Shown: positions 22,718 to 55,046 of the stretch, piece by piece
Layout of the letters: each line of letters opens with the position of its first letter
Position numbering within the stretch: position 1 is the first letter of the stretch
Source: Candidatus Omnitrophota bacterium
Lineage (GTDB): Bacteria; Omnitrophota; Gorgyraeia; 2-01-FULL-45-10
Length of the DNA: 64,000 nt
Assembly: GCA_041663425.1 (NCBI GenBank)
Contig: JBAYMS010000001.1
Coordinates: 8,884 to 72,883 of the forward strand
Direction: 5' to 3'
Notes under the pieces: generated by a model
What the model was told of the DNA's origin: nothing
The model's database searches: none
Seen by the model: the letters and a program-made list of their open reading frames with translations, nothing else
Program-made: the position numbers and the translations under genes

Positions 22718-22749
22718 AGTTCCACGTGGAAATTGTTCCACGGGGAACA
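22718..22749. promoter_or_regulatory. Two abutting parS-like centromere sites
   Basis: AGTTCCACGTGGAAAT (22718-22733) and TGTTCCACGGGGAACA (22734-22749) compare with the parS consensus TGTTCCACGTGGAACA. Both lie directly upstream of parA. Confidence 0.65.
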
Positions 22750-22761
22750 ATTTCAGGGAAA

Positions 22762-37840: not shown

Positions 37841-38406
37841 ACGAGAAAGAAGTTTTGGATGTATTTAATAAAAAGAATGCGTTGTTAACAGGCCATTTCA
37901 AATTATCGAGCGGCCTTCACAGTAAAAATTATCTGCAATGCGCCCTGATATTGCAGTATCCGGACATCGCGGAAGAGCTTTCGAAAGAGATAGCGAAAAG
38001 AGTTTCAAAAGAAAATATAGATGTGGTTGTAGGACCAGCTCTGGGCGGGGTAACATTTGCTTATGAGATCGCGAGAGCACTTAAAGTGCGCGGGCTATTT
38101 ACGGAACGACAGGAAGGTGCGATGGTGCTGCGCCGCGGTTTTACTATATCGCCGGGTGAGAAAGTTCTTGTGGCAGAAGACGTTATAACAACGGGCGGTT
38201 CTACTAAAGAAGTCATCGAAGTTGTAAAAAAGCTGGGCGGTATCGTGGTCGGAGTAGCGAGCATAATAGACAGAAGCTCAGAGCCTGTGGACTTCGGCGT
38301 GCCGTTTACGGCTCTTGCCAGGATAAAGGTTGAGACTTTCAAAGAAGAAGATTGTCCTCTCTGTAAGGCAAAAACCCCGATAACAAAGCCCGGCTCGAGA
38401 AAATAA
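37837..38406 (+). CDS. pyrE: Orotate phosphoribosyltransferase
   Basis: It has the PRTase motif VLVAEDVITTGGS. Confidence 0.9.
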   Translation: MNEKEVLDVFNKKNALLTGHFKLSSGLHSKNYLQCALILQYPDIAEELSKEIAKRVSKENIDVVVGPALGGVTFAYEIARALKVRGLFTERQEGAMVLRRGFTISPGEKVLVAEDVITTGGSTKEVIEVVKKLGGIVVGVASIIDRSSEPVDFGVPFTALARIKVETFKEEDCPLCKAKTPITKPGSRK

Positions 38407-38466
38407 GCATAAATTCTAAATTATTGCGTCCGGACGGGCGGTTATGGTATTATATTTTCCACTTTA

Positions 38467-38541
38467 GGGCAAGTAGCTCAATGGCGGAGCAATCGGTTTA
38501 CATCCGATAGGTTACAGGTTCGACCCCTGTCTTGCCCACCA
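38467..38541 (+). tRNA. tRNA-Val (anticodon TAC)
   Basis: The sequence is GGGCAAGTAGCTCAATGGCGGAGCAATCGGTTTACATCCGATAGGTTACAGGTTCGACCCCTGTCTTGCCCACCA. Confidence 0.8.
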
Positions 38542-38616
38542 CTTCTCTGAATAACCCAAGCCATGCAGTCCCGAGGAGATGTGGTTTGACTGATGCGACG
38601 AGGGACACTTAACCCT

Positions 38617-38859
38617 ATGAGCAAGTGGACTGTTTATATTCTTAAATGTAATGACGCTTCTTTATATACCGGCATTACGACCGATCTTGAAAAACGGGTA
38701 AAAAAGCACAATGAAGGCCGTGCTGCGAAGTACACGAGAGCAAAAAGGCCTGTTTCAGTGGTTTATACTGAAGGCGCTGTTAATTCATCCTCAGCTAAAA
38801 AGAGAGAAGCCGAGATAAAAAAATTATCTCGACAAGCTAAGGTAGAGCTGATAAAATAA
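38617..38859 (+). CDS. GIY-YIG nuclease family protein (UPF0213-like)
   Basis: It reads WTVYILKCNDASLYTGITTDLEKRVKKHNEG. The likely start is MSKW at 38617. It lies between two tRNAs. Confidence 0.7.
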   Translation: MSKWTVYILKCNDASLYTGITTDLEKRVKKHNEGRAAKYTRAKRPVSVVYTEGAVNSSSAKKREAEIKKLSRQAKVELIK

Positions 38860-38873
38860 GCTTCCAGATTTCC

Positions 38874-38950
38874 GGGGACGTAGTTCAGTTGGTTAGAACG
38901 TCAGATTGTCGATCTGAAGGTCGCGGGTTCGACCCCCGTCGTCCCCGCCA
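38874..38950 (+). tRNA. tRNA-Asp (anticodon GTC)
   Basis: The sequence is GGGGACGTAGTTCAGTTGGTTAGAACGTCAGATTGTCGATCTGAAGGTCGCGGGTTCGACCCCCGTCGTCCCCGCCA. Confidence 0.85.
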
Positions 38951-38985
38951 TATAGAAACAGTAACTGGTTTAATACCAGATGATT

Positions 38986-39030
38986 AGCCGTAACAAGTTG
39001 TAAATTCAACTGGTTACGGCTATTTTATTT
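38986..39030 (+). terminator. Intrinsic terminator after tRNA-Asp
   Basis: A perfect 9-bp stem AGCCGTAAC / GTTACGGCT with a 18-nt loop is followed by ATTTTATTT. Confidence 0.55.
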
Positions 39031-39104
39031 ATCTTGCGTGTTTTGGAAATTAGCGCTATTCTTGGAAGTGATGGCACAAAAATGGCACAGTCATAGGGCT
39101 CCGA

Positions 39105-39599
39105 ATGGCGAATAATATTGATGTTTCAAAACTTCCGCTAAGCAAGATATTGATTTTGTTTGGCGACTTAATGGATGAGCTGAAGAAAAGAGGCGTTGTT
39201 AGAACGCGTAATAATCCGGTAGCTGACTATGCCGAATGGCTAACGGTAAGAGTCTTTAGTCTTGGCATCCAAACAAGCTCTAACAAAGGCTTTGATGCCA
39301 TTGATAAAAAAGGAATTCGATACCAAATAAAAGGCCGTAGGCTCGATGCTTCAAACCCATCCCGGCAATTGGGGGTTATTCGCGATCTTGATAAAAAGGG
39401 ATTCGATTTTCTTATCGCTATCATATTTAACAAAGATTTTACTATTCACGATGCCTATAAAATTCCGCACGAGCTCATAGGCGAATACGCTCGTTATAGT
39501 AAACATCAAAATGGATATATATTACACCTTAAAGGAAAAATTCTTCTGGCAAAAGGCGTTGAGAATATTACCGGAGCATTAAGCAAAGTTTCGGCATGA
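39105..39599 (+). CDS. Hypothetical small protein, possibly PD-(D/E)xK nuclease-like, 8 bp upstream of the PHP-ATPase gene
   Basis: It is 164 aa. Candidate catalytic motifs are GFDAID ... YQIKG (D...(E/Q)xK). I recognise no family for it, and the motif assignment is tentative. Confidence 0.35.
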   Translation: MANNIDVSKLPLSKILILFGDLMDELKKRGVVRTRNNPVADYAEWLTVRVFSLGIQTSSNKGFDAIDKKGIRYQIKGRRLDASNPSRQLGVIRDLDKKGFDFLIAIIFNKDFTIHDAYKIPHELIGEYARYSKHQNGYILHLKGKILLAKGVENITGALSKVSA

Positions 39600-39606
39600 G
39601 GAGATT

Positions 39607-42477
39607 ATGAACTATCCACGAGGGTCGGAATGGAGAAAATGGGACTTACATTTACACACACCGTCTTCTTATGATTACGATGACAAGAGCGTCACAGATG
39701 AGCAATTGATTAAAACCTTAAAAGAAAACGAAATTACCGTTGTAGCTATAACGGATCATCATTTTATAGATGTTGAAAAGATAAAGAAACTACAAGAATT
39801 AGCAAAAGACGAAATTACAATATTCCCGGGGATTGAGCTTCGAGCAGAGCTGGGAGGTAGCGAATCCATCCATTTTATAGGAATATTCCCAGAGGATTCT
39901 GATGTAAATGATATTTGGACAAAATTACAGGGGCAGTTAGAATTAACGCCAGCGGATGTAAAGAAAAAAGGTAATGATAAGATTTATTGCCATTTGAATA
40001 AGGCCGCCGAGCTTATTCATCAGTTGGGAGGCATTATAACTATTCATGCTGGCTCGAAAAGTAACTCGGTTGAAAAAATCACTAATGCGCTTCCATATAA
40101 AGAAGCGCTTAAAGAAGACATTGTGAAATCTATCAATGTCTATGAAATCGGGAATTCAGCCGATGTGGAAGGATACAGAAGCAATGTTTTTCCGAACATA
40201 GGGATTAAAATTCCTTTGGTAATTTGTTCTGACAACCACGATATAAAAAAGTATGTGTTAAAAGAGAATTGTTGGATAAAAGCAGATCCAACATTTACCG
40301 GGTTAAAGCAGATTATATTAGAGCCGGAGGATAGGGTATATATTGGCAAAGCTCCAACGAGGAGGAAAAACCTCGCCAGCGTAATCGACAAGATTGAGAT
40401 TAGTAATTCTAACGGGTGGTTTGAGGAATCCCCTATTGTTTTAAACGAAGACTTGGTCACCATAATAGGAGAAAAAGGTGCCGGTAAGACCGCGCTTGCC
40501 GATTTTATAGCTCTGGCGGGCGGGGATTTTGGGCTTCAAAAAAGCGATGCTAGCTCTTTTGTATTCAAAGCTCTAACCCCTACCAAACAAATCGAGAAGA
40601 CCATTGAAAATTGTCAAGTAACTATCAAATGGAAAGAGGGCAATCCCGACCAGATAACTATAAACAAAGAGCTGGTTGATTATAAACCTACGAAGAAAGT
40701 AAAATATTTATCTCAAAGTTTTATTGAGGAAAAATGTCGCCCAGAACACGCTGATGAATTGAGAAAAGAAATCGAGAATATCGTTTTTCAATATATACCA
40801 ACATCCGATAGGCTTGGGCAAACAACATTTAACGATTTAAAACGTTTAATGACGCGGGGTATTGAAGTAGAAAAAAGTAACTGCAGACAGCTTTTATTCG
40901 ACCTCAATGGTGAAATTTCTATTCTAAGAGACGAGATAGATAATCTCGAAGTACAAAAGTCAACTAAGAAGAAAACTGAAGATGAAATAACTCAGTTAAA
41001 TGAACAGAAACCAAAACCTGCTGATGCCGAGGAAAAAGCCATCGAAGATAAGCTGGCTATTTTATATACCAAGAAAAGTGAGATTAACGAAAAAGTTGCA
41101 GAATGCAAGTTGCAATTAAGCACCATAGAATCTATAAAAACAAAGCTGCTAGCTCTAAGTCAATACGTTGAAAAAGAATTGATTAGCATTAAGACGGACC
41201 TTGATTCAATAGCTTTAGGCAGTATTTACAACAAGCTAACATTTTCAATAAATCCAGAATTTCATACGAAGCTTGATGAAGCTAAGAATAAGCTGACGAA
41301 ACAGATTAAAGATTTTGAAGGAGCGCCGGAAAAAGTATCGTCCCTCACCGAAGATGAGAAAAAACTAGAGCTGATAACGACTGATTTTGTCAATGGGCTC
41401 ACACTTTCTCGTTTAGATGTAATTATAGAATGGCTAGAAACAAAATCGAGCATTGCCTATGATGCAAGAAAAGTTATTAAGGATTTCGAAGAGAAAATAG
41501 AGAAAAATAAGAAAGCAGTAGCATCTTTAGAAAAAAGCATCGCCGAGGTAGAGAAAACAAAAAAACCTACTCTTGCGAAGAAAATCGAGGAAAGAAATAG
41601 TGCCTATAAAAGTTATTTCACTTTGCTCCAAAAAGAAAAAAGTGTATTTGAAAGCCTGAGCGCACCTATTAAAACAAAAATTGATTCAGAGAATGTTGGT
41701 GATAAGCAGATAGGTTACTCAGCAAGAATTGAATTTGATGTTAATGGATTTTATGAAAAAGCATGTGAAATAATAAATTTCAAAGCAGCTGGTCATTATC
41801 ATCAAGATGGCCAACTGTTATTTAAAGATATCAAAGCCATAGCAGAAAAGATTGAGCTCGCAGAAGATGCCGATGTTTGCGCTTGTCTTGTAGACCGGTT
41901 CATTCAAACATTCGAAAAAGATGATGGTAGCGATGTTGATATTAAAACTCAACTGAAAAAAGGTAAAAAACAAATTGATTTTGATGCATGGCTTTTTGGT
42001 ATTTCATTCTTCAGCGTGACATATAGCATAAAATACCAAGATACTTATATTGAATTGCTATCTCCTGGAAAAAAAGGGATAGTGTTGTTACTAATGTATC
42101 TCACGTTAGATGCTGAGAGTGGCATACCGTTGATTATAGACCAACCAGAAGAAAATCTAGACAACAAATCCGTATATGCGCATCTAATAGAATACTTCCG
42201 CCAAGCCAAGAAGCGGCGGCAAATTATCGTTGTAACACACAATCCGAATTTAGTATTAAATACAGATGCCGAACAAGTGCTTGTTGCTGATTTTCAAGTC
42301 GTACCACCTGCGGGGCAAGCAAGAATAAGATATATAAGCGGGTCTATAGAAAATTCGTTTATTAACGAGTCTCTCAAAGACCCTCTCAGAAGACAGGGTA
42401 TTCGCGAGCATGGTGCCGAGATATTGGAGGGCGGTAAAAAGGCCTTTATTCAGCGAAAAGATAAGTACGAATACTAA
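39607..42477 (+). CDS. 956-aa fusion of an N-terminal PHP phosphoesterase domain with an SMC/Rad50/SbcC-like ABC ATPase that has a long coiled-coil insert (Ppl-like candidate defense protein)
   Basis: The PHP motifs are WDLHLHTPSS, AITDHH, ITIHAG and CSDNHD. The Walker A is GEKGAGKT (about aa 290). Roughly 500 aa of K/E-rich coiled coil follow. The ABC signature-like motif is LSPGKKG, the Walker B is LIIDQPEENLD and the H-loop is VVTHN. Confidence 0.7.
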   Translation: MNYPRGSEWRKWDLHLHTPSSYDYDDKSVTDEQLIKTLKENEITVVAITDHHFIDVEKIKKLQELAKDEITIFPGIELRAELGGSESIHFIGIFPEDSDVNDIWTKLQGQLELTPADVKKKGNDKIYCHLNKAAELIHQLGGIITIHAGSKSNSVEKITNALPYKEALKEDIVKSINVYEIGNSADVEGYRSNVFPNIGIKIPLVICSDNHDIKKYVLKENCWIKADPTFTGLKQIILEPEDRVYIGKAPTRRKNLASVIDKIEISNSNGWFEESPIVLNEDLVTIIGEKGAGKTALADFIALAGGDFGLQKSDASSFVFKALTPTKQIEKTIENCQVTIKWKEGNPDQITINKELVDYKPTKKVKYLSQSFIEEKCRPEHADELRKEIENIVFQYIPTSDRLGQTTFNDLKRLMTRGIEVEKSNCRQLLFDLNGEISILRDEIDNLEVQKSTKKKTEDEITQLNEQKPKPADAEEKAIEDKLAILYTKKSEINEKVAECKLQLSTIESIKTKLLALSQYVEKELISIKTDLDSIALGSIYNKLTFSINPEFHTKLDEAKNKLTKQIKDFEGAPEKVSSLTEDEKKLELITTDFVNGLTLSRLDVIIEWLETKSSIAYDARKVIKDFEEKIEKNKKAVASLEKSIAEVEKTKKPTLAKKIEERNSAYKSYFTLLQKEKSVFESLSAPIKTKIDSENVGDKQIGYSARIEFDVNGFYEKACEIINFKAAGHYHQDGQLLFKDIKAIAEKIELAEDADVCACLVDRFIQTFEKDDGSDVDIKTQLKKGKKQIDFDAWLFGISFFSVTYSIKYQDTYIELLSPGKKGIVLLLMYLTLDAESGIPLIIDQPEENLDNKSVYAHLIEYFRQAKKRRQIIVVTHNPNLVLNTDAEQVLVADFQVVPPAGQARIRYISGSIENSFINESLKDPLRRQGIREHGAEILEGGKKAFIQRKDKYEY

Positions 42478-42655
42478 GTTTAATAATCAATTGCTGAGAA
42501 TAAATATAAACAAGAACTGATTAATCGCTGGTCTAAGCTTTATGGTAAACAGATAACCGAAGAAGAATATCGACAGATTTGTGATAATTTAAGCGGTTAC
42601 ATTAAACTTTTGTATGAGTGGGATATGAAAGATAAAACGCAAAAAGGAGAGCACA

Positions 42656-42880
42656 ATGCCAAGGATAGCAAGTAATGTTTGCCCAGCGTGTCATAATAAG
42701 TTTCCTGCACACAAAGGTAACACGAAAACTTTTAGACAACTTACGCCGGCGGAGAGAAGTAGGTCTATTAGAATGATGGCTATCAATTTAAAGAAGGCTA
42801 TAAATGCTGACTTGCCATCGACCCGTATCAGACGGCTTTTTTGGGTTATAGATTATATGGCGCGGCAGGGAAGCAGGTAA
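42656..42880 (+). CDS. Small CPAC-motif protein, or a fragment of a degraded gene
   Basis: It is 74 aa (MPRIASNVCPACHNKF...). An upstream open frame at 42487-42663 has no ATG and changes frame into this ORF, which suggests decay. Confidence 0.3.
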   Translation: MPRIASNVCPACHNKFPAHKGNTKTFRQLTPAERSRSIRMMAINLKKAINADLPSTRIRRLFWVIDYMARQGSR

Positions 42881-42883
42881 CAA

Positions 42884-43026
42884 ATGATACATGAAAAAAA
42901 CGTATTTAACGATATCTTCGCTGATTTGATTTGCCATTCCCAGTTTGATGGAGGGCATAATCCTTTAGATTATTTGCACTATATGGACAAAATGGAACAG
43001 GCTAGAAAAAATAATAATGAAGAAGT
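42884..43026 (+). pseudogene. ORF whose 3' end is truncated by the IS insertion
   Basis: The ATG at 42884 opens MIHEKNVFNDIFADLICHSQFDGGHNPLDYLHYMDKMEQARKNNNE, and the reading frame continues into the IS inverted repeat. Confidence 0.3.
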
Positions 43027-43037
43027 GACCTTACCCC

Positions 43038-43751
43038 TTACACTGCACAGCTCGTAAGGTGAATTTCTGGTGTTTTTTGTTGTTCTTTCCAGGCCTTGGT
43101 GAACTCTGCCGGAGTTAGACCGTCTAACGATCCGTGAGGCCTGAATGTATTATACTCCACTCTCCAGTCTTCGATAATCTTTTTTGCTTCTTCAATCGTA
43201 ACGAAGTAATGTTGATTGAGGCATTCGTGCCGTAGCCTACCATTGAACGACTCGATAAAAGCGTTCTGTATGGGCTTGCCGGGCTTTATAAAGTCAAGCC
43301 TAGCACCGTTATCATACGCCCATTTATCAAGGGCTCGTCCCGCGAACTCAGGACCGTTATCGGTCGTGATTACTTGCGGACATCCTCTTGTAAGAACTAG
43401 CCAATCAAGCACTCTCGTTACTCTGTTACCGTCTATAGACGTATCGACTTCGATAGAGAGACATTCTTTAGTAAAGATATCAAGCACGTTCAGCGTCTTT
43501 ATCTTCCTGCCGTTCCATAACCCGTCTGACATAAAGTCCATCGCCCAGCGTTCATTGGGCTTCGAGGCTTCCGGTAGCTCTAGTCTGATCATTGAGGCTC
43601 TCTTGTGACGTTTGCGAAGCTTTAGCGCGAGGCTATTCTCCTTATAGATGCGCTCGGTGCGCTTATGGTTTACTACAAGTCCCTCACGATGCAATATATC
43701 GTGAAGCATCGGAAGTCCCCAGCTCTTATGCGTAGCTATAAGCTCCTTCAT
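43038..43751 (-). CDS. IS3-family transposase OrfB (DDE integrase catalytic domain); the N-terminal part is upstream in the -1 frame, overlapping orfA
   Basis: It has an rve-type core: ITTDNGPEFAG...LDFIKPGKPIQNAFIESFNGRLRHECLN. Confidence 0.85.
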   Translation of the reverse strand: MKELIATHKSWGLPMLHDILHREGLVVNHKRTERIYKENSLALKLRKRHKRASMIRLELPEASKPNERWAMDFMSDGLWNGRKIKTLNVLDIFTKECLSIEVDTSIDGNRVTRVLDWLVLTRGCPQVITTDNGPEFAGRALDKWAYDNGARLDFIKPGKPIQNAFIESFNGRLRHECLNQHYFVTIEEAKKIIEDWRVEYNTFRPHGSLDGLTPAEFTKAWKEQQKTPEIHLTSCAV

Positions 43752-43888
43752 ACGGTCTAATATCTTCGCATCGTTATTAGCTCTACTGGTCTTGTAATAA
43801 TAGCTTGATCTATTAAGCTCTACAAGCCTGCATGATCTAGCCTTCGACAGCCCAAAGCGCTCTTTTAACCGAGCTACAGCAAGTCTCT

Positions 43889-44167
43889 TTACTTTGGGCT
43901 TAGGAAGTTTTTTGAGTTGAGCGCCTTTAACGCCTGGTTATCGAGTGTTAAGTCCGCGACTATGTTCTTTAGTCTGCGGTTCTCATCCTCGAGCGCCCTT
44001 AGTTTCTTCGCGTCTGATACTTCCATGCCGCCATACTTCGATATCCACTTATAGATCGTGCCTTCACAGACATTAGCTTCTCTTGAGATATCTGAAACCG
44101 CCACTCCTTGCTCATGTCTCTTTAAAAAAGCTATTATCTGTTCCTCTGTAAATCTTTTGCGTGACAT
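43889..44167 (-). CDS. IS3-family transposase OrfA (HTH)
   Basis: It reads MSRKRFTEEQIIAFLKRHEQGVAVSDISREANVCEGTIYKW and has a leucine-zipper-like C-terminus. Confidence 0.85.
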   Translation of the reverse strand: MSRKRFTEEQIIAFLKRHEQGVAVSDISREANVCEGTIYKWISKYGGMEVSDAKKLRALEDENRRLKNIVADLTLDNQALKALNSKNFLSPK

Positions 44168-44517
44168 ATCCCGAGCCTCCTTTACGTAGCTATTGGTAGC
44201 TACGGTTATACACTAGGAAACTCGCCTTGTAAACTGTCTAGTTTAGCGGGGTAGGGTCACTTTCGTCAGTTTAAATTATGGCGAGCCCGCAGATTTTTAC
44301 ATTGTCCCAAGCAAAGTCGTTGCAACCTTCATAAAAAAACATAATCGAAAGTGGCTTAAGACCCCCGGCAGAAAAGGCCAGAAACACAACCAAACCTCAA
44401 TGAGACAATTTAGAGACGACGAACAGCGATATCGTAACGCATATTACCTCATGAAGTTGTAATATTTTGTAAATTTATATAATAGTTTAAGGGACGGTTC
44501 TGACGAAAATCTGACCG

Positions 44518-45084
44518 GTGACATACCACCGACAGGTTCCTATGATACTCAAAGACTATGACATATCGTTAGTATATAGGCTACTTGAGCCGGGCCCGGT
44601 TGTGATGGTAACAACATCGCGGGATGGCAGGCCCAATGTTATGACTATGTCCTGGCATACCATGATGGAATTTACCCCGCCTCTTATAGGATGTGTTATA
44701 AGTGACAGGAATTACACATTCGATGCGCTCAAAGCCACAAAAGAATGCGTTATTGCGATACCTTCGGTAAAGCTTGCAGGCAAAGTGGTGCAGGTGGGCA
44801 GTGTTTCAGGCCGGAACACGGATAAATTTAAAACAATAGGACTTACTCCGAAACCCGCCTTTATAGTGAAAGCGCCTATCATAGCCGAATGTTTTGCAAA
44901 CATAGAATGCAGGGTGGTAGATACCTCGCTGGTAAATAAATATAATTTCTTCATAATGGAAGCGGTGAAAGCTTCCATAGATCACGCGCAAAAAAATCCG
45001 AAAACCCTCCATCATCATGGTAAAGGAACGTTCGTTTCCGATGGCGTAAAAATAAGGCGTAAATTTAACAGCCTTGAGCCATAG
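44518..45084 (+). CDS. Flavin reductase-like (FMN-binding split-barrel) protein
   Basis: It reads PVVMVTTSRDGRPNVMTMSWHTMMEFTPPLIGCVIS. Confidence 0.7.
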   Translation: MTYHRQVPMILKDYDISLVYRLLEPGPVVMVTTSRDGRPNVMTMSWHTMMEFTPPLIGCVISDRNYTFDALKATKECVIAIPSVKLAGKVVQVGSVSGRNTDKFKTIGLTPKPAFIVKAPIIAECFANIECRVVDTSLVNKYNFFIMEAVKASIDHAQKNPKTLHHHGKGTFVSDGVKIRRKFNSLEP

Positions 45085-45126
45085 AAAATAAAAATCGCAC
45101 TTATATTTGACACTTGCACATACATC

Positions 45127-47085
45127 ATGTATACTTCATCAAAAACCGAAAGGAAATTAATGTCAAATAAATCTATATTTGCGGCAGTAATAACAGTATT
45201 TGTTTTATTTATAACTTCCGTTTCTTTTGCAAGTCAAGCGTCAACCACTTCCACCAATCAAAGCGAGATCAAACCCTACTGGTTTTTAGATGCGCCTAAA
45301 GAATGGCCCGCCCAGGTAATGCCTGGTATGCGCGGCGGGACTGAGAAACTTAAAAGCTATATCGACAATCTCATCCCTGTTTTTGGCACAAAAGATATCA
45401 TACTATTTGCTGATTATAAATCTGTTATGGGAGCCAGAGGTTCAAACGAAGAGAATATAGGAATAGGGTTAAGAGATCTTCTCTTCGACGAAAAGCTTAT
45501 CCTGGGAGGCAATTTCTTCTATGATACCCGCTATACGGAAAACAAGATAAGGCATCATCAGCTGGCATTTGGTTTGGAGGGTTTGACGAAATGGGTAGAT
45601 GTAAGGTCTAATTTTTACTTTCCGATATCGGGTAGGCAGATGCTAAGCGGTGATACTACATATTTATTCGGCTCGAAAAGCCTGGATGTGCAGAACACAT
45701 ACGAAGAACCGTTAACCGGCATTGATTACGAAGCAGGTGTTCTTATACCATGTTTGTCTGATTACGTTGAGACAAGAGCATTTCTGGGAGGATATAACTA
45801 TTTTCCCGGCATAGGTAAAGGGCTTAACGGTATAAAGGCAAGGTTTGAAGTCCGTCCCATAAAGGCGCTTACGGTAAATGTTGAGATGAAAAGCGATAAT
45901 TACGGTGCGCCCCAATATTTTGTTGAAGGTTTTATGACAATCCCTCTCGATACGATGAACGTATTCAAAATAAAAAATCCATTTACCGAATTTGGAAAAT
46001 ACTTCTCCTATAAAAAGGGCATTAGGTCTTTAAGAGAACGTATGGTTGATAGAGTAGTGAGAGACATAGACGTAACCGCTAAAAGCACTCCTACGGTACG
46101 GTCAAAAGCTCATGATCTTACCTATGTAGACAACACATATTATAGCGGATACTCGAATGGTTCGCTGGATCGCCCGTATACGACTATAGCCGATGGTATA
46201 ACAAATGCCACGGGAGACCATTGGATTTACGTAAAAGGCACCGGCACTAATTATGCCGGCAATCTTAACCTCCCCTCAAACTACGTTCTTTGGGGTAGTG
46301 CTTATAATGGAGGCTTCCAGAATCTCGGCGTAAGCGGTGTTTATCCCGTCATAAGCGGCGGCACTCAATGCTTAACTATTAATAATAATAATACGGTTAT
46401 GGGGATGAAGATGCAGAGCGCCACGGACAACGGTATCAAATTTACCGCAGGGACCACATTAACCGGAACGATAAAACATAATATCTGTAATAGCAACGGC
46501 AACAACGGAATAGATCTGGACAGCAACACAGCTACGATCACAAGCTTCACCATCGACAGTAATACGCTCAATAGTAATACCAGTAATGGAATAAACTTTG
46601 GAGGCAATAGCGGGACGATGCGTAACGTTACTATTTCCAATAATATGATAGACAGCAACGGGGATGATGCAATAAGGATGTGGGCAAACTCAGGGACACT
46701 GACCGGTTTTCTCATCTCTAATAATACGTGCAGCAATGCCGGCCTTCACCATGGAATAGATATGGATGGCAATGGTGGCACTATGAGTAATTTTACGTTC
46801 TTGCGTAACGTCATAACAGGTAATAACCGGGACGGAATAATGATGAAGGGCGGGACTATAACCGGCATTAATTTTGGCGATGGCACAGCAGGCGGCTATA
46901 ACTCCATCTATAATAACAACCAAGCGGCTGGCAGCTATTACGATTTTGAAAACCAAACCGGAAACGCTGTCTACGCCCAGTATAACTGGTGGGGACAGGC
47001 TACCGGACCGGGCGCAGGGCAGATTTACAATAGTGCCACTAGCAGCACAAATTCTTCAAATTACCTATCCTCAAATCCAAACTAA
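45127..47085 (+). CDS. Inverse autotransporter (intimin/invasin-type beta-domain) with a parallel beta-helix repeat passenger
   Basis: It has a signal peptide. The beta-domain motifs YEEPLTGIDYEAG and PCLSDYVETRAFLGGYNYF resemble intimin YDERPANGFDIRFNG and PSYPALGAKLIYEQYYG. The C-terminus carries repeated NGIDLDSN / NGINFGGN / DGIMMKGG beta-helix turns. Confidence 0.55.
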   Translation: MYTSSKTERKLMSNKSIFAAVITVFVLFITSVSFASQASTTSTNQSEIKPYWFLDAPKEWPAQVMPGMRGGTEKLKSYIDNLIPVFGTKDIILFADYKSVMGARGSNEENIGIGLRDLLFDEKLILGGNFFYDTRYTENKIRHHQLAFGLEGLTKWVDVRSNFYFPISGRQMLSGDTTYLFGSKSLDVQNTYEEPLTGIDYEAGVLIPCLSDYVETRAFLGGYNYFPGIGKGLNGIKARFEVRPIKALTVNVEMKSDNYGAPQYFVEGFMTIPLDTMNVFKIKNPFTEFGKYFSYKKGIRSLRERMVDRVVRDIDVTAKSTPTVRSKAHDLTYVDNTYYSGYSNGSLDRPYTTIADGITNATGDHWIYVKGTGTNYAGNLNLPSNYVLWGSAYNGGFQNLGVSGVYPVISGGTQCLTINNNNTVMGMKMQSATDNGIKFTAGTTLTGTIKHNICNSNGNNGIDLDSNTATITSFTIDSNTLNSNTSNGINFGGNSGTMRNVTISNNMIDSNGDDAIRMWANSGTLTGFLISNNTCSNAGLHHGIDMDGNGGTMSNFTFLRNVITGNNRDGIMMKGGTITGINFGDGTAGGYNSIYNNNQAAGSYYDFENQTGNAVYAQYNWWGQATGPGAGQIYNSATSSTNSSNYLSSNPN

Positions 47086-47107
47086 TTCTTAGGTAGATTG
47101 AAACCGC

Positions 47108-47156
47108 GGGGACGGCTCTGAATGTAATTTCAGAACCGTCCCCAAATTTTTATTTT
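47108..47156 (+). terminator. Intrinsic terminator after the autotransporter gene
   Basis: GGGGACGGCTCTGAA ... TTCAGAACCGTCCCC is followed by AAATTTTTATTTT. Confidence 0.7.
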
Positions 47157-47237
47157 ATATTATCATTATCAAAAACTTGTCAACCGTGCATTTTTAATGT
47201 AAGCTTAAACCGCTGATGTTAAAAACAGAGGAGCGGC

Positions 47238-47642
47238 ATGGCCCAGAAAATATTGATAGTAGATGACGAAAAAGATTTTATCGATATGCTTGCCGAAAGG
47301 CTTATGGCAAAAGGATTTAACATAGTCGAAGCCTTTAACGGAAAAGATGGGCTCGATAAAGCGCATGCAGAAAAGCCTGATGTGATAGTGCTCGACCTGA
47401 CAATGCCGGAGATGAGCGGTTATGATGTATGCAGAAAGCTTAAAATAGATAAAAATTATAAAGACATACCGATCATAATGTTGACTGGAAAGTTCCAGCC
47501 AAACGATATAGAGTTCGGCAGGGAAATGGGAGCAGATGCGTATCTGACAAAACCGCTGGAGTTGAAAGCGTTATCCCACAAGATAGACGCGCTCTTACGC
47601 CTTCGGGATAAAAATAAAAAAATAAAAGGAGTATCAAGATGA
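47238..47642 (+). CDS. Stand-alone response regulator receiver domain (CheY-like)
   Basis: It has DDE, a phospho-acceptor D in VIVLDLTMP, and the conserved T and K. Confidence 0.8.
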   Translation: MAQKILIVDDEKDFIDMLAERLMAKGFNIVEAFNGKDGLDKAHAEKPDVIVLDLTMPEMSGYDVCRKLKIDKNYKDIPIIMLTGKFQPNDIEFGREMGADAYLTKPLELKALSHKIDALLRLRDKNKKIKGVSR

Positions 47643-48745
47643 AGAAAATGCTTGTTGCGCTGTTCGGCATTGTGTTTTTAACATCATCAGTAATAATTCC
47701 TGCCGAGGCCTGCACAAGTTTTCTTTTAAAAACCAAAAACGGCAGCCCTGTTTATGGACGCACATGTGAGTGGGGTGCTTTTGATACCGAGCCAGATATT
47801 GTAATGGTGCCGCGCAACTATAAATTTACTTCTAAGCTGAAAGACGGCAAATTGGGAATGACCTGGAAAAATAAATATGGATACGTTGCTATAAACGCTC
47901 TTAACCTGCCATTCTACCTGGACGGCATGAATGAAACCGGTCTTACCATAGGCGGTTTGTATTTACCGGCGTTCGCCGAATTTCAGCCCTTTAAAGCCAG
48001 TGAGCAATCTGTTACTGTAAATAATCTCGATCTGATAGGTTATATACTGGGCCAGTTCAAGACGACAGGAGAGGTCAGGGCCGCATTGCCAAAACTACGC
48101 ATTGTAGAATTGTCTAAAGATGTTCTCAACGTGCCTATGCCTCTGCATTATGTTGTTACAGACAGCACGGGGAATTCTATAGTGATCGAATATGTTAAAG
48201 GCTCGCTGAATATTTACGATAATACAATCGGGGTTATGACTAATTCCCCGGGTTACGACTGGCATATAATAAATTTACGCAACTATACTCATCTTACGCC
48301 ATACGGCGAAGAACCAGGCGATAAAGAAATAAACGGTGCTAATTTTACTCCCGTTGGTGTAGGCGACGGTATGACGGGTCTGCCCGGCGACTACTCGTCG
48401 GCATCCCGCTTTATCCGGGCTTTTTTCTATACAGAGACGTCCCTTCCGCTCGAAGATGCTGACGCGGCGATAAATCAGGCATCCCGCATTCTTAATAACT
48501 TCGATTATCCCAAAGGTTTTGAACGCAATGGAACTTCGGAAAAATATACGCTTGGATATACGCAGTGGAGTGTGATAGGCGACATCCGGAATAAGCGCTA
48601 CTATTGGTGGACGGAATGGAACCGCCAGATGCGCATGGTCGATCTGAATAAATTGAGTTTCAGCGGCAGTGAAATTGCTGTCAGCCAGCTGGACAAGGTG
48701 CGGATGCAAAACGTAGACGACCGGACCAGGGATTTCCAAAAATGA
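47639..48745 (+). CDS. Secreted Ntn-hydrolase of the choloylglycine hydrolase / linear amide C-N hydrolase family
   Basis: After the signal peptide comes AEA|CTSFLLKTKNGSPVYGRT, which gives an N-terminal Cys nucleophile. Confidence 0.6.
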   Translation: MKKMLVALFGIVFLTSSVIIPAEACTSFLLKTKNGSPVYGRTCEWGAFDTEPDIVMVPRNYKFTSKLKDGKLGMTWKNKYGYVAINALNLPFYLDGMNETGLTIGGLYLPAFAEFQPFKASEQSVTVNNLDLIGYILGQFKTTGEVRAALPKLRIVELSKDVLNVPMPLHYVVTDSTGNSIVIEYVKGSLNIYDNTIGVMTNSPGYDWHIINLRNYTHLTPYGEEPGDKEINGANFTPVGVGDGMTGLPGDYSSASRFIRAFFYTETSLPLEDADAAINQASRILNNFDYPKGFERNGTSEKYTLGYTQWSVIGDIRNKRYYWWTEWNRQMRMVDLNKLSFSGSEIAVSQLDKVRMQNVDDRTRDFQK

Positions 48746-49833
48746 AACAAAAAAAACGGGAGGTGTGGGTGCATAAATATTTCGCAGTATTATTGGCATT
48801 TATTTTTGTATTATTTATTTCGCCAGCTGCATTATTGGCCGGTGAGAAATCGGCAGAAATAAAGAAGACGACATGGAATGATATCTTTTCCGGAGTGGTT
48901 GGAAATTACCCGCTTAGTATGGAACAGACCAGCCCTGAGCCAGCTCAAAAAAACAAGCTCAGCATACCGAAAAACTGGGAATTCAACGCGGAAATAAAAC
49001 GTTATCTTACAAGCCATACTTCGTATGAATTTGGAAGCCCTGAAGCTCCTTTTACAAAGCCGCTAAGCCGGCTCGAATTTCCAGTTAATACATGGTGGTT
49101 AAATCTTGATCTGCGCCGGACTTCTCCGCGATGGTCTGTCGGAGGCAGGGCAGGGTTAAGCCTTAACCGCAATTCAAACCAATGGATGGAGGATTCGGAT
49201 TGGGGCCCTTCCGGCAGCGTAAATGCGTTAACCAACTATTCCAGAAATTATTGTGATATAAGGAACGCATTCCTGTTCCGTGGAGATGTAGACGTGAATA
49301 TTTCGGACTGGCTGCGTCTGCCGTCCGCGTGGGAGATCAGACCGCTTTTTGCGTTCCAGTTCCAGAGGTTCAAAGCAGTGGCGCACGATGGTGTTCAGTG
49401 GAACTACGATAAAGATACTTCCGAGCCGCTGGACGGGGATGCCATAAGCTTCCGGCAGGATTGGTATACATATATGATCGGGCTCAGAGGCTCATATAGT
49501 AAGAATTTAAACAAGAATGTAACGATTAAACTCAGAGGAGAGGCTGATTGGGGACCTGCTGTCGGATATAACGAAGATCATCATCTTCTGCGCGGGAATA
49601 GGTTTACCTATGAAAAGACATCCGGCCAGGCTCTTTACTTCTCGACCGGACTGGACATGACCGTTTCAAAAACTATAACCATGGGTGTCGGTATAGACTA
49701 TCTGCAGATAAGAACTTCAGGTATACACAGATGGTGGGATACTGCAGAAGCCGCTGATCAATGCTGGTCAGACGGGGTGAAGGCCTGGTCCGATCAGTTC
49801 GGCCTGAGCACACACATATCGTATGCATTTTAA
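48742..49833 (+). CDS. Putative outer-membrane beta-barrel protein
   Basis: It has a signal peptide, alternating amphipathic strands and a C-terminal ...HISYAF. The terminal aromatic is an OMP signature. Confidence 0.4.
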   Translation: MKQKKREVWVHKYFAVLLAFIFVLFISPAALLAGEKSAEIKKTTWNDIFSGVVGNYPLSMEQTSPEPAQKNKLSIPKNWEFNAEIKRYLTSHTSYEFGSPEAPFTKPLSRLEFPVNTWWLNLDLRRTSPRWSVGGRAGLSLNRNSNQWMEDSDWGPSGSVNALTNYSRNYCDIRNAFLFRGDVDVNISDWLRLPSAWEIRPLFAFQFQRFKAVAHDGVQWNYDKDTSEPLDGDAISFRQDWYTYMIGLRGSYSKNLNKNVTIKLRGEADWGPAVGYNEDHHLLRGNRFTYEKTSGQALYFSTGLDMTVSKTITMGVGIDYLQIRTSGIHRWWDTAEAADQCWSDGVKAWSDQFGLSTHISYAF

Positions 49834-49853
49834 AAGAGTGATATAATTAATAT

Positions 49854-50480
49854 ATGCTTATACTGATCGAGAAAATACCGTTTCACAGGCTTGGAGCGCT
49901 GATAGACGGTGTATTTGCGATAGTCATGACGATACTTGTCCTCGATATAAAAGTTCCTCATGACATGGCTGTATTTAAAAGTTTAAGTTTAGAGCACTTC
50001 CTCACCGGACAGTTCCAGGATATAGTTATCTACATGGTAGTCTTTATGGTCCTCGCGTATCTGTGGATAATAAATCACAGCGAGTCACACTTTATAAAAT
50101 TTACCGACTATGTCCACTTATGGCTTACCATACTATGTCTTATGTTCGTAGCGCTTCTTCCTTTCTCATCCGCTCTGGTGAATAAATATCCGCAAGATGA
50201 GATCGCGGAGCTGTTCCTTGCGGGGAATGTTCTGATAATAGGCATATTTAACTATATCAGCTGGGCATATATTATAAAGCGTCCGGCGCTGCTGGAGTCT
50301 ACGCTCACTGAGAAACAAACAGCCACAGAGAAGAAGAAGCTTCTGATAATGCCTCTTGTGGCCGTTATGGCAATGGCGGTTGCTCTTATATATCCCCTGG
50401 GGTCATCGTATACGCTTCTTTTAGCTCCGGTAGCAATGTTCTTTATGGAATTGCGATGGGGAGCTAGGAATAAAAGGTAA
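49854..50480 (+). CDS. DUF1211 / TMEM175-like membrane protein (putative K+ channel family)
   Basis: LGALIDGVFAIVMTILVLDI matches the RLxxFSDGVFAIAITLLVL signature. Confidence 0.6.
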   Translation: MLILIEKIPFHRLGALIDGVFAIVMTILVLDIKVPHDMAVFKSLSLEHFLTGQFQDIVIYMVVFMVLAYLWIINHSESHFIKFTDYVHLWLTILCLMFVALLPFSSALVNKYPQDEIAELFLAGNVLIIGIFNYISWAYIIKRPALLESTLTEKQTATEKKKLLIMPLVAVMAMAVALIYPLGSSYTLLLAPVAMFFMELRWGARNKR

Positions 50481-50573
50481 GGCATTGTATTTCTCTTCAA
50501 CATATGCTATACTATAGGTGAGGCCAAGGGAGAAGGGATTTAGACAGTAGCCCATAAGCCTCACAAGGTTTTG

Positions 50574-50624
50574 CCCATCTACCAAATACGGTATAAACAG
50601 AAAAGGTAGGTGGGTTTTCTTTTA
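50574..50624 (+). terminator. Intrinsic terminator or attenuator between the DUF1211 gene and the TMTC-like gene
   Basis: A 10-bp stem CCCATCTACC/GGTAGGTGGG (one G-U pair) is followed by TTTTCTTTT. An upstream stem GTGAGGC(50518)...GCCTCAC(50564) also forms. Confidence 0.5.
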
Positions 50625-50654
50625 GATAAAAACAGCACAATATCCGCATATCTG

Positions 50655-52148
50655 ATGAATCAGGAACGAAAAAATATATTTTTCCTGCCTATTATTTCAA
50701 TAATCATTTTAGGGGCTATTTGTTATGCCGGCTCTCTGAATGGGAAATTTATACTGGATGATGAGCTTCTGGTAAAAGAGAACGCGCTCATAGCGAACAG
50801 GGCAGGTCCTGGTACATTTCTTTCTACCAATATCATGGCAGGGGCCGGCATGGTCTCCGCTTTTTACCGTCCATTGCAGATGATCACCTATGCGCTGGAT
50901 CATGCCATATGGGATCTTAATCCGTTCGGATATCATATTACTAATATATTTATTCATATTCTTACCGCACTATGCATATATTGGCTGATCAATATTTTAT
51001 ATAATGATAATAAATTATCCTTTTTAACCGCCGCATTATTCGTGGTTCATCCGATGCATACCGAAGCCGTAAGCTATATCTCTGGCAGGGCAGATCCTCT
51101 TTCCGCATTATCTATGCTTCTATGCGCGATAATATATATAAAACAAGTGAAGCTGGGCAGGGCAGGTGTTTCGGGCTGCGCACTGCTCATATTAACTTAT
51201 GTTTTAGCGCTTCTTTCGAAAGAGATGAGTGTGGTGCTGCCGCTACTGCTCCTTCTTTATCATTTTGTTTTCAAAAAGAAGGTGCGTTGGCCGGCATTTG
51301 TGTCTTTACTGAGCGTCCTGGCTGTCTATCTGTTAGTCAGGTTCACTTATCTTAGAGATATATCTTTTCCGACGAATATTGGGATCGATACGATGCTTAA
51401 CAGGATTCCCGGATTCTTCGCCGCAATACTGAATTATATAAAGCTTTTATTTGTGCCGATCCCGCTTCATATGGAATACGGGGCCAGACTGTTCCGATTT
51501 GCGGACCCAATAGTAGTTTCCGGCATGGTAGTAGTTTTTAATATACTCGTTTTTGCCTATACGAAAAGAAACAACAAGGTAGTCCTATTTTCAATAGGCT
51601 GGTTTTTTCTGGCCTTGCTTCCGTCGGCTAATTTATACAAAGTAAACGCATACATGGCGGAACATTTTCTTTATCTGCCTTCCATAGGATTTTTCCTGTT
51701 GGCAGCCTATGTTTTAACAAATATTTATAATAATAAAAGGTATAAAATTATCGGACTTGCGCTGATGGTGACTGCTATCTTATTTTATTCGGTCCTTACG
51801 ATAAAACAAAACGAATACTGGAGAGACCCTATAACATTTTACACAAGGACCATAGAATTTGCCCCACCCAGTGCGAACATTTATTATGGCCGTGGAATAA
51901 TTTATGATAAAAAAGGTGACTATGATAAAGCCATATCAGATTACACCATGGCTATTAAAATAAAACCTGACTATACGGATGCATACAATAATAGGGGTAT
52001 CGTCCACAGTAAAATGGGCAATTATGAACAAGCCATATCAGATTATGCTATGGCTATAAAGATAGATCCGGACTATATTCCCGCCCAGAAAAATCTTATA
52101 AAAGCACGTAAAGATAGCGGCAGGATTGCAGAGGGCCATAGCAGATGA
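50655..52148 (+). CDS. TMTC-like polytopic GT-C-fold protein with a C-terminal TPR domain (paralog of 60284-61870)
   Basis: The N-terminal TM region with FILDDELLVKEN aligns with SFQLDDHIVIIDN of the paralog. The C-terminus carries TPRs (YYGRGIIYDKKGDYDKAISDY..., YNNRGIVHSKMGNYEQAISDY). The likely start is MNQERK at 50655. Confidence 0.55.
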   Translation: MNQERKNIFFLPIISIIILGAICYAGSLNGKFILDDELLVKENALIANRAGPGTFLSTNIMAGAGMVSAFYRPLQMITYALDHAIWDLNPFGYHITNIFIHILTALCIYWLINILYNDNKLSFLTAALFVVHPMHTEAVSYISGRADPLSALSMLLCAIIYIKQVKLGRAGVSGCALLILTYVLALLSKEMSVVLPLLLLLYHFVFKKKVRWPAFVSLLSVLAVYLLVRFTYLRDISFPTNIGIDTMLNRIPGFFAAILNYIKLLFVPIPLHMEYGARLFRFADPIVVSGMVVVFNILVFAYTKRNNKVVLFSIGWFFLALLPSANLYKVNAYMAEHFLYLPSIGFFLLAAYVLTNIYNNKRYKIIGLALMVTAILFYSVLTIKQNEYWRDPITFYTRTIEFAPPSANIYYGRGIIYDKKGDYDKAISDYTMAIKIKPDYTDAYNNRGIVHSKMGNYEQAISDYAMAIKIDPDYIPAQKNLIKARKDSGRIAEGHSR

Positions 52149-54969: not shown

Positions 54970-55046
54970 AAATAAAATTTAAGTTCGATGAAACTTTTTT
55001 ATCCAATCTCTTGTCTAATATTCGAAGCCTACGCCAGGAGACATAG

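What the first reader, a model, noticed from the sequence alone, without database searches (positions are those of the whole stretch)
38874..44517. Roughly 5.5 kb accessory island inserted 3' of tRNA-Asp within a highly conserved core region
To the left lie the pyr operon, tRNA-Val, a GIY-YIG gene and tRNA-Asp. The terminator hairpin after tRNA-Asp marks the boundary. The island holds an unknown small ORF, the PHP-SMC ATPase, frameshifted or decayed ORF fragments (42487-43026) and an IS3-family element. The rightward flank resumes with a flavin reductase and envelope genes. Integration at a tRNA gene plus an IS and decayed genes is the signature of horizontally acquired DNA. A weak 8-nt echo of the tRNA 3' end (GACCCCCG at about 44349) is too short to call an attR.
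Basis: partly seen in the sequence, partly recalled or inferred. Interest (0 to 1): 0.55.

Follow-up and report, generated by a model that had tools for sequence, protein, structure and literature searches.

The report
Small defence island beside tRNA-Asp
A roughly 5.5 kb stretch of foreign-looking DNA right after a tRNA-Asp gene in an uncultured Omnitrophota bacterium carries two anti-phage-type genes and a jumping gene; it is a real but ordinary example of a swappable "hotspot" island.

Summary
tRNA-Asp ends at 38950. The next 4.1 kb is the lowest-GC stretch of the window (0.372 against a mean of 0.430).

Contents, left to right:
- A BisI-family modification-dependent restriction endonuclease (39105-39599), with all four catalytic residues intact.
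- Eight bases downstream, a TrlF-family protein (39607-42477) that fuses a PHP nuclease domain to a Rad50/SMC-like ATPase.
- Three small orphan ORFs.
- An intact 1234-bp IS3-family element (43026-44259).
- The 3' half of a small PD-(D/E)XK nuclease gene, cut off exactly at the IS end (44262-44465).

Comparative evidence supports the island reading. Two relatives are collinear through pyrE, tRNA-Val, GIY-YIG and tRNA-Asp, and both diverge immediately after the tRNA. One of them carries a different 6.2 kb low-GC insert before the same flavin reductase gene. That insert is bounded by a 21-nt repeat of the tRNA 3' end.

The window itself has no integrase and no attR. The IS has no target duplication, so its side of the island has been rearranged.

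The BisI/TrlF pairing is not conserved elsewhere, although TrlF relatives often sit beside restriction systems.

Verdict: a new member of a known kind, of modest interest.

The parts
38874..38950 (+). tRNA-Asp (GTC) with encoded CCA. Its 3' end is the left boundary of the variable region.
   Evidence: ARAGORN; Rfam tRNA 72.9 bits. Three genomes are collinear to here and then diverge.
38951..39104 (+). Island-specific leader. It holds an intrinsic-terminator-like hairpin (38985-39022, followed by a T-run) and the upstream region of the two-gene operon.
   Evidence: Inverted repeat I6, 16 nt, 94%. Fold -28 kcal/mol, z = -4.75. No similarity to L176 or L097 downstream of the tRNA.
39105..39599 (+). 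BisI-family (type IIM/IV) modification-dependent restriction endonuclease, 164 aa, single PD-QxK domain.
   Evidence: Eco15I (8q5m) E = 1.2e-42 and NhoI E = 1.4e-19. PADLOC mREase_II 3.1e-60. Pfam DUF6998. E44, D64, Q74 and K76 align to Eco15I E49, D69, Q79 and K81, all shown essential in PMC11347163.
39607..42477 (+). TrlF-family protein, 956 aa. N-terminal PHP phosphoesterase (about 1-250) fused to a Rad50/SMC-like ABC ATPase head split by a long coiled coil (about 417-694).
   Evidence: NCBIfam NF045780, 566 bits against a cut-off of 350, full length. The Ppl model matches the N-terminal 300 aa only. Conserved DLHxH, TDHH, Walker A G288-K294, signature S819-G824, Walker B D845-E848 and H878. 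AF2 model pLDDT 85.7. Foldseek hits Rad50, JetC and SMC heads, and RNase AM and Pol III PHP domains.
42487..42675 (+). 62-codon open frame without a usable start codon. Orphan, possibly a decayed fragment.
   Evidence: No family hits. No relatives in any fetched locus.
42656..42880 (+). 74-aa orphan ORF with a CxxC motif. Function unknown.
   Evidence: Only sub-threshold zinc-finger hits. Same frame as the next ORF, separated from it by TAA-CAA.
42884..43025 (+). 47-codon orphan ORF that runs into the left end of the IS. An assembly-graph branch point lies at its start (about 42860-42889).
   Evidence: It is not the N-terminus of the nuclease family found on the other side of the IS.
43026..44259 (-). 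Intact IS3-family insertion sequence, 1234 bp. orfA is 44167-43889. orfB (rve DDE domain) ends at 43038 and is reached by a -1 frameshift at A-AAA-AAC near 43905. No target-site duplication.
   Evidence: Inverted repeats I12. Reading frames. Pfam HTH_Tnp_1, HTH_21, rve, rve_3. NCBIfam transpos_IS3, 208 bits. Flanks are AAG| and |CTT.
44262..44465 (+). 3' half (66 codons plus stop) of a gene for a roughly 150-aa PD-(D/E)XK (Mrr-like, E..D..QVK) nuclease, truncated exactly at the IS right end.
   Evidence: 283 relatives at E <= 1e-3, aligning to their residues about 83-148. The family HMM matches only profile positions 83-148; the N-terminal half is absent from the whole window.
44542..45084 (+). 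Flavin reductase family gene. This is the first syntenic gene on the right, so it is flank and not island.
   Evidence: Pfam Flavin_Reduct 5e-31. 74% identical orthologue in the same relative position in L176.

Best explanation
This is a small, degraded defence island sitting in a recombination hotspot at the 3' end of tRNA-Asp in a Candidatus Omnitrophota genome.

Shown:
- The tRNA 3' end is a breakpoint at which three related lineages carry three different cargos.
- In one relative the cargo is bracketed by a 21-nt repeat of the tRNA 3' end. That is the footprint of site-specific integration into the tRNA gene.
- The window's cargo is compositionally foreign.

Inferred function:
- The cargo is a two-gene operon. 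Gene 1 is a BisI-family endonuclease. It has no partner methyltransferase and should cut incoming DNA carrying 5-methyl- or 5-hydroxymethyl-cytosine in GCNGC-like sites.
- Gene 2 is a TrlF-family protein, in effect an Mre11-Rad50-like machine on one chain. A Rad50/SMC-type ATPase with a coiled coil would sense or clamp DNA and license the N-terminal PHP metal-dependent nuclease to degrade it. This would be an independent line of defence, related at its N-terminus to the anti-phage protein Ppl.

Inferred history:
- The right-hand part of the island was remodelled by an IS3 element. The IS lacks a target duplication and abuts a half-deleted nuclease gene, so an IS-associated deletion removed DNA there.
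- That deletion plausibly removed whatever integrase and attR the element once had, leaving the island immobile.
For: Left boundary and hotspot:
- Alignment A1 and BLAST show the window, L176 and L097 collinear to 38949/38950 and unrelated afterwards.
- L176 keeps pyr genes, tRNA-Val, GIY-YIG, tRNA-Asp, then 6.2 kb, then the flavin reductase.
- L176 has a 20/21-nt direct repeat of the tRNA 3' end at 3221-3241 and 9407-9427.

Foreignness:
- Lowest GC in the window, and GC3 about 2 sd below the mean.
- The nearest homologues of both genes are scattered. TrlF: 62%, 56%, 51%. BisI: 78%, 73%, 63%. They sit in unrelated contexts and on 1105 and 121 plasmid records respectively.

Gene identities:
- BisI family, with the catalytic tetrad intact.
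- TrlF family above NCBIfam's cut-off, with all PHP and ABC motifs conserved.
- A confident model with Rad50/JetC/SMC and RNase AM/Pol III PHP structural neighbours.
- Operon: an 8-nt gap with GGAG before the TrlF ATG.

IS and deletion:
- Intact IS with inverted repeats and no target duplication.
- A nuclease gene truncated exactly at the IS end, with its N-terminal half absent from the window.

The physical junctions are confirmed by independent contigs: L081 covers 38086-42860 and L084 covers 42889-55084.
Against: - No integrase, excisionase or attR is present in the window. Site-specific integration is therefore inferred from a relative, not shown here.
- Only two close relatives could be found, at 74-92% aa and 88% nt. 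Gain cannot be formally separated from differential loss or replacement.
- A defence role has not, to my knowledge, been shown experimentally for any TrlF-family protein. The only phenotype on record is that the Photorhabdus trl operon restricts growth at 36 C, and no selected mutations fell in trlF (PMC7554251).
- The match to Ppl covers the N-terminal third only and is far below Ppl's cut-off.
- The enzymatic specificity of the BisI homologue is untested.
- The 42860-42889 join is not confirmed by independent assemblies.
Confidence: 0.8

Rival explanations
1. BisI and TrlF form one coupled system. TrlF acts as a restriction-linked back-up or partner nuclease, in the manner of PrrC or RloC next to type I/III R-M systems. 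It would either fire when the restriction enzyme is inhibited or process the ends the enzyme makes.
For: - The two genes are 8 nt apart on one strand.
- TrlF relatives lie directly after a type I hsdR (L166).
- One lies between a type III Mod and Res with gaps of 4-24 nt (L170).
- One lies directly before hsdM-S-R, next to a DUF262/DUF1524 protein (L201).
- Two lie near R-M genes in viral contigs (L181, L194).
- The Yersinia pYR3 trl locus holds type I M fragments (PMC7554251).
- My own recollection: RloC is likewise a Rad50-like ABC ATPase fused to a nuclease.
Against: - The pairing with BisI was seen nowhere else. The closest TrlF homologues have other neighbours and the closest BisI homologues lack TrlF.
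- Many TrlF genes stand alone on plasmids.
- About 6 of roughly 30 sampled contexts are R-M-linked. Ordinary defence-island clustering could produce that.
Confidence: 0.15
2. The genes are ancestral to this lineage at this site and were lost or replaced in the relatives. This would be differential loss, not acquisition.
For: Only two relatives are available and both carry some cargo at the site. No att repeat or integrase is present in the window.
Against: - GC and GC3 are about 2 sd below the genome's genes.
- Both proteins have patchy, cross-phylum and plasmid-borne distributions.
- The divergence point coincides with the tRNA end to the base in three genomes.
- A relative shows an att-type repeat at the same tRNA.
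Confidence: 0.07
3. The island is an assembly or binning artefact, a chimeric join of unrelated contigs.
For: An assembly-graph branch at 42860-42889. L081 and L082 stop there. L084 has an unrelated 225-nt head.
Against: - An independent ENA contig (L081) runs without a mismatch from pyrE through both tRNAs into BisI, TrlF and the 74-aa ORF.
- L084 runs from 42889 through the IS into 10 kb of right flank with one mismatch.
- Both outer junctions are therefore real. Only the internal 29-nt join is unconfirmed.
Confidence: 0.04

Closest known systems
[quoted passage not shown]
   Same: Single-domain protein of about 165 aa. Strong sequence match to Eco15I_Ntd and NhoI. Identical E-D-QxK catalytic tetrad. 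No adjacent methyltransferase.
   Different: Comes from an uncultured Omnitrophota bacterium. Lacks Eco15I's C-terminal domain. Translationally adjacent to a TrlF gene. Specificity is untested.
TrlF of the Photorhabdus laumondii temperature restriction locus (trlR-trlF-trlG); NCBIfam NF045780
   Same: Full-length match above the curated cut-off. PHP plus AAA-like/ABC ATPase architecture.
   Different: No trlG (Alba_2/HATPase_c_4) and no trlR partner here. The upstream partner is a BisI-type nuclease instead.
Ppl single-gene anti-phage system (NF042955; PADLOC Ppl)
   Same: The N-terminal PHP domain and the start of the ATPase align (residues 6-305; E = 1.9e-31 in PADLOC).
   Different: 120 bits against a cut-off of 1000. 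The rest of the protein does not match, so this is a different family.
Mre11-Rad50 / SbcCD and Wadjet JetC (SMC-type ATPases with coiled coils)
   Same: The ATPase head split by a long antiparallel coiled coil is the best structural neighbour.
   Different: The nuclease is a fused PHP domain on the same chain, not a separate Mre11/SbcD or JetD subunit. The coiled coil is much shorter. Sequence identity is 10-14%.
tRNA-gene-associated genomic islands / integrative elements
   Same: Sits exactly at a tRNA 3' end. Atypical composition. Absent from relatives. A relative has an att-like tRNA-end repeat at the same site.
   Different: No integrase and no attR in the window. Only 5.5 kb. The right end was rearranged by an IS.
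IS3-family insertion sequences
   Same: orfA/orfB with an A-AAA-AAC frameshift site, DDE rve domain, TG...CA inverted repeats, 1.23 kb.
   Different: No 3-4 bp target duplication. One flank is a truncated gene, which indicates a secondary deletion.

Membership tests
BisI-family modification-dependent REase | Significant sequence homology to characterised members (Eco15I, NhoI) | tested here: met
   E = 1.2e-42 and 1.4e-19 against PDB chains. PADLOC mREase_II 3.1e-60.
BisI-family modification-dependent REase | Catalytic E...D...QxK tetrad (Eco15I E49, D69, Q79, K81) | tested here: met
   E44, D64, Q74 and K76 align column for column. The residues are defined as essential in PMC11347163.
BisI-family modification-dependent REase | No cognate methyltransferase (solitary enzyme) | tested here: met
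   No MTase domain in any ORF of 38951-44517.
BisI-family modification-dependent REase | Cleaves only m5C/hm5C-containing GCNGC-type sites | not testable with these tools
   Needs enzyme assays.
TrlF family AAA-like ATPase (NF045780) | Full-length HMM score above the curated cut-off | tested here: met
   566.4 bits against 350, model positions 1-944 of 944.
TrlF family AAA-like ATPase (NF045780) | Intact PHP metal-binding motifs and ABC Walker A, signature, Walker B and H-loop | tested here: met
   Invariant D13, H15/H17, D50, E77, D209/H211, G288-K294, S819-G824, D845-E848 and H878 in a 42-sequence alignment, numbered on the window protein.
Temperature restriction locus (trlR-trlF-trlG operon) | Adjacent trlG (Alba_2 + HATPase_c_4) and small trlR regulator | tested here: not met
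   Neighbours are BisI upstream and orphan ORFs downstream, and none has such domains. Operon definition taken from PMC7554251.
Ppl anti-phage protein (NF042955) | Full-length match above the curated cut-off | tested here: not met
   120 bits against 1000. Only residues 6-305 align.
tRNA-integrated genomic island | Located at the 3' end of a tRNA gene and absent from relatives that share both flanks | tested here: met
tRNA-integrated genomic island | Direct repeat of the tRNA 3' end (attL/attR) bracketing the island | tested here: not met
   No match above chance in the window. Met in relative L176 (20/21 nt).
tRNA-integrated genomic island | Integrase gene | tested here: not met
   No tyrosine or serine recombinase domain. 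The only recombinase is the IS3 DDE transposase.
tRNA-integrated genomic island | Atypical base composition or codon usage | tested here: met
   GC 0.372, the lowest 4-kb window. GC3 0.335-0.345 against 0.448 +/- 0.054.
IS3 family | Two overlapping ORFs with a -1 frameshift, a DDE (rve) transposase, and TG...CA terminal inverted repeats | tested here: met
IS3 family | 3-5 bp target-site duplication | tested here: not met
   Flanks are ...GAAGAAG| and |CTTTCGT.

The most novel reading that the evidence does not exclude
TrlF-family PHP-Rad50-like proteins may be a restriction-linked module. They are recruited next to type I, type III and, as here, modification-dependent restriction enzymes. In this reading the BisI-TrlF operon is a functional two-component system in which TrlF either backs up the restriction enzyme when phage counter-measures disable it or processively destroys the DNA ends it creates. 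That would be a PrrC/RloC-like or RecBCD-like logic built on a PHP nuclease.
Probability: 0.15. Interest if true: 0.6.

Novelty: new member of a known kind. Interest (0 to 1): 0.3.

Why it matters
The locus is a clean, well-bounded example of a tRNA-Asp hotspot in Omnitrophota, an uncultured phylum with small genomes. Three lineages carry three different cargos at the same base.

It extends two families into this phylum: the BisI family of methyl-dependent restriction enzymes, which are useful reagents, and the poorly understood TrlF family.

TrlF is very common on conjugative plasmids (1105 plasmid records), yet I know of no demonstrated molecular function for it. The model built here, a PHP nuclease fused to a Rad50/SMC-like head with a coiled coil, together with its repeated adjacency to restriction systems, gives a concrete and testable hypothesis.

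As a genome feature, the island itself is ordinary.

Tried and rejected
- **Search for an attR.** I looked for exact matches of 9 nt or more and for the best ungapped 30-mers of the tRNA 3' end in 38966-50000. Results were at chance level only.
- **Integrase remnant.** Pfam, NCBIfam and PHROGs scans of all ORFs and fragments found none.
- **IS interrupts one gene.** Deleting 43026-44259 restores a 114-codon frame. The idea was still rejected. The right part belongs to a family of about 150 aa whose N-terminal catalytic half does not resemble the left part and is absent from the window. The open frame is a coincidence, roughly 4% by my estimate.
- **Right-flank synteny in species-representative genomes.** The flavin reductase query gave 80 loci. 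The loci that scan returned showed no synteny: no tRNAs in the three best, no shared flanking genes in any.
- **pyrE-anchored metagenome scan.** One close contig was found (L097). The rest were too distant.
- **Exact-protein look-ups with the longest-ORF starts.** These failed. Shorter starts worked.
- **L084's 225-nt alternative head.** No match in the window, in the fetched loci or in viral contigs.
- **The three low-GC ORFs of L176's insert.** No Pfam or PADLOC hits.
- **Small orphan ORFs of the window.** No relatives next to any other TrlF or BisI locus.
- **Rfam.** Nothing beyond the two tRNAs.
Full report
**Source and setting.** The window comes from a Candidatus Omnitrophota MAG. The TrlF, BisI and flavin reductase proteins are each 100% identical to NCBI entries named 'Candidatus Omnitrophota bacterium' on a 99.5 kb contig. 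The best non-self flavin reductase relatives are also Omnitrophota or Omnitrophica MAGs.

**1. The observation.**
- ARAGORN and Rfam place tRNA-Val at 38467-38541 and tRNA-Asp (GTC) at 38874-38950. An 80-88 aa GIY-YIG ORF lies between them, and the pyr genes lie upstream.
- After the tRNA come a strong hairpin with a T-run (38985-39022, z = -4.75), a 164-aa ORF (39105-39599), a 956-aa ORF (39607-42477), small ORFs (42487-43057) and an IS3-family transposase pair on the minus strand. A flavin reductase follows from 44518 or 44542.
- GC falls to 0.34-0.40 over 39250-42750.
- The interval 38951-43025 has GC 0.372. That is the lowest of all 4,075-bp windows in the 64 kb (mean 0.430, sd 0.024).
- The two large genes have GC3 of 0.345 and 0.335 against a mean of 0.448 (sd 0.054) for 49 ORFs.

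**2. Comparative test of the island idea.**
- A scan of species-representative genomes with the flavin reductase gave relatives of at most 72% with no shared neighbours. A pyrE-anchored metagenome scan gave one close contig, L097.
- L097 is 88% identical in DNA to window 38082-38949. The match stops at the last bases of tRNA-Asp. Downstream it encodes a second GIY-YIG protein instead.
- A protein search then found a 74%-identical flavin reductase on a 79.9 kb Omnitrophica contig, L176.
- L176 has pyrK, pyrD, pyrF (84% aa), pyrE (92%), tRNA-Val, GIY-YIG (80%) and tRNA-Asp in the window's order. About 6.8 kb downstream of the tRNA lies the flavin reductase, and further on SBF and DUF134 genes that also occur in the window.
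- None of the genes between the tRNA and the flavin reductase is shared. L176 has three unknown ORFs of GC 0.33-0.36 (flanks about 0.53), then a 296-aa ORF, a TPR protein and a DUF748 protein.
- A three-way alignment shows all three genomes identical through ...CCCCGCC and unrelated thereafter.
- In L176 the 21 nt CCCCGTCGTCCCCGCCAGTTA, which is the tRNA 3' end plus 4 nt, recur 6186 bp downstream with one mismatch. After the second copy come a 45-aa ORF, mscL and the flavin reductase. This is the classic attL/attR footprint.
- The tRNA-Asp 3' end is therefore a genuine integration and replacement hotspot in this lineage, and the window's cargo is one of at least three alternatives.

**3. What the window lacks.**
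- No repeat of the tRNA 3' end exceeds chance. The best exact match is 11 nt, far away at 48638.
- No integrase domain is present in any ORF or fragment.

**4. The cargo.**

*ORF 39105-39599.*
- It matches the crystallised BisI-family enzymes Eco15I (E = 1.2e-42) and NhoI (E = 1.4e-19) without gaps across the catalytic core.
- It matches PADLOC's type II methyl-directed restriction enzyme model at 3e-60.
- Eco15I residues E49, D69, Q79 and K81 were each shown to be essential (PMC11347163). With the +5 numbering offset they correspond to E44, D64, Q74 and K76 here, and all four are conserved.
- No methyltransferase is present. It is therefore very probably an active solitary modification-dependent endonuclease.

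*ORF 39607-42477.*
- It starts 8 nt after the first gene's stop, behind a GGAG.
- It scores 566 bits, full length, on NCBIfam's TrlF model, whose cut-off is 350. Only its first 300 residues resemble Ppl.
- TrlF is named after the Photorhabdus temperature restriction locus trlR-trlF-trlG. In that system the growth phenotype mapped to trlG, and no function was assigned to trlF (PMC7554251).
- A 42-sequence alignment shows the PHP motifs invariant: D13-L14-H15-x-H17, D50, E77 and D209/H211. The ABC motifs are also invariant: Walker A G288-K294, signature S819-G824, Walker B D845-E848 and H878.
- An AlphaFold model (pLDDT 85.7) shows an N-terminal alpha/beta barrel-like domain and an ATPase head interrupted by long helices at 417-534 and 618-694.
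- Foldseek finds Rad50, Wadjet JetC, MukB and SMC heads for the ATPase. It finds RNase AM and Pol III alpha PHP domains for the N-terminus.
- The most likely mechanism is inferred, not shown: an ATP-gated, DNA-clamping or end-sensing ATPase that controls a fused metal-dependent PHP nuclease.

**5. Are the two genes one system?**
- The closest TrlF relatives have different neighbours. One lies directly after a type I hsdMSR (62% identity, another Omnitrophota). One lies among toxin-antitoxin pairs (56%). One lies between a type III Mod and Res on a conjugative element (52%).
- On plasmids TrlF is common, with 1105 records, 819 of them conjugative. It is often solitary, and once sits just upstream of hsdMSR.
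- In 20 viral contigs, two showed R-M genes nearby in a crude search.
- The closest BisI relatives (78% and 65%) have no TrlF. One overlaps the end of an hsdR in a defence island. Plasmid copies are solitary.
- The BisI-TrlF pairing therefore looks like modular defence-island shuffling.
- A functional link between TrlF and restriction systems in general remains possible. I give it about 0.15.

**6. The right-hand end.**
- The IS spans 43026-44259. It has 12-nt TGACC.../...GGTCA terminal repeats and a 92-aa OrfA. OrfB is open in the -1 frame from an A-AAA-AAC site. HTH_21 and rve domains are present, so the element is intact. It is the only copy in the window.
- It has no target duplication: the flanks are AAG| and |CTT.
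- Removing the IS in silico restores a 114-codon frame, but this is misleading.
- The 66 codons to the right (44262-44462) have 283 relatives. They align to residues about 83-148 of PD-(D/E)XK (Mrr-like, E..D..QVK) proteins of about 150 aa.
- The 47 codons to the left do not resemble the family's N-terminal half, and a family HMM finds that half nowhere in the window.
- The gene is therefore cut exactly at the IS end. Together with the missing duplication, this indicates an IS-associated deletion or rearrangement.
- The three ORFs at 42487-43025 are orphans with no family or locus matches.

**7. Assembly caveat.**
- Independent contigs confirm pyrE through the 74-aa ORF (L081, 38086-42860, 100%) and 42889 through 55084 (L084, one mismatch), including the IS.
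- L081 and L082 both stop at 42860-42873. L084 has an unrelated 225-nt head to the left of about 42889.
- The internal join therefore rests on the window's contig alone. A second variant of the island's left part probably co-exists in the sample.

**8. Verdict.**
This is horizontally acquired accessory DNA at a tRNA hotspot.
- It is a small, degraded defence island: a BisI-type restriction enzyme, a TrlF PHP-Rad50-like nuclease-ATPase, orphan ORFs, an intact IS3 element and a truncated nuclease gene.
- It is a new member of known kinds rather than a new kind. The most novel reading the evidence leaves open concerns the function of TrlF and its relationship to restriction systems.

Noticed in passing
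L176:3238-9427 (GCA_028715345.1 JAQUSB010000004.1): A different 6.2 kb insert lies at the same tRNA-Asp in a relative, bracketed by a 20/21-nt repeat of the tRNA 3' end. Its first three ORFs (232, 199 and 219 aa; GC 0.33-0.36) have no Pfam or PADLOC hits. No integrase was seen.
   Followed up: partly
window 42860-42889; L084:1-225: Assembly-graph branch. Two independent contigs end here. A third, otherwise identical to window 42889-55084, carries an unrelated 225-nt sequence (GC 0.37) on its left. This suggests a co-existing variant of the island.
   Followed up: partly
window 44262-44465: 3' half of a gene for a roughly 150-aa PD-(D/E)XK (E..D..QVK, Mrr-like) nuclease with 283 relatives in the representative library. 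It is truncated exactly at the IS3 right end, and the family has no PADLOC entry.
   Followed up: yes
L097:870-1128 (Ga0172381_10334304): In an 88%-identical relative, tRNA-Asp is followed by a second small GIY-YIG gene. The GIY-YIG gene between tRNA-Val and tRNA-Asp is itself conserved (80-92% aa) in all three genomes.
   Followed up: partly
L170:182-7315: A TrlF homologue (52% identity) is inserted between the Mod and Res genes of a type III restriction system, with gaps of 4 and 24 nt, on an element that carries a relaxase and a coupling protein.
   Followed up: partly
window 45127-52148: The genes right of the flavin reductase have no counterpart in L176. They are an inverse-autotransporter-like protein, a response regulator, CBAH, an omptin, TMEM175 and a TPR protein. 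L176 has GATase_7, carB and DUF748 there before the shared SBF gene. This looks like a second variable stretch.
   Followed up: no
window 17393-18490 and 21078-23613: Other low-GC genes occur in the window (GC 0.351 with GC3 0.276, and GC 0.38-0.39). The stretch 16-20 kb is the only other region with 4-kb GC below 0.39.
   Followed up: no
window 42656-43025: The 74-aa and 47-aa orphan ORFs are in the same frame, separated only by TAA-CAA. They may be one gene split by a nonsense mutation.
   Followed up: no
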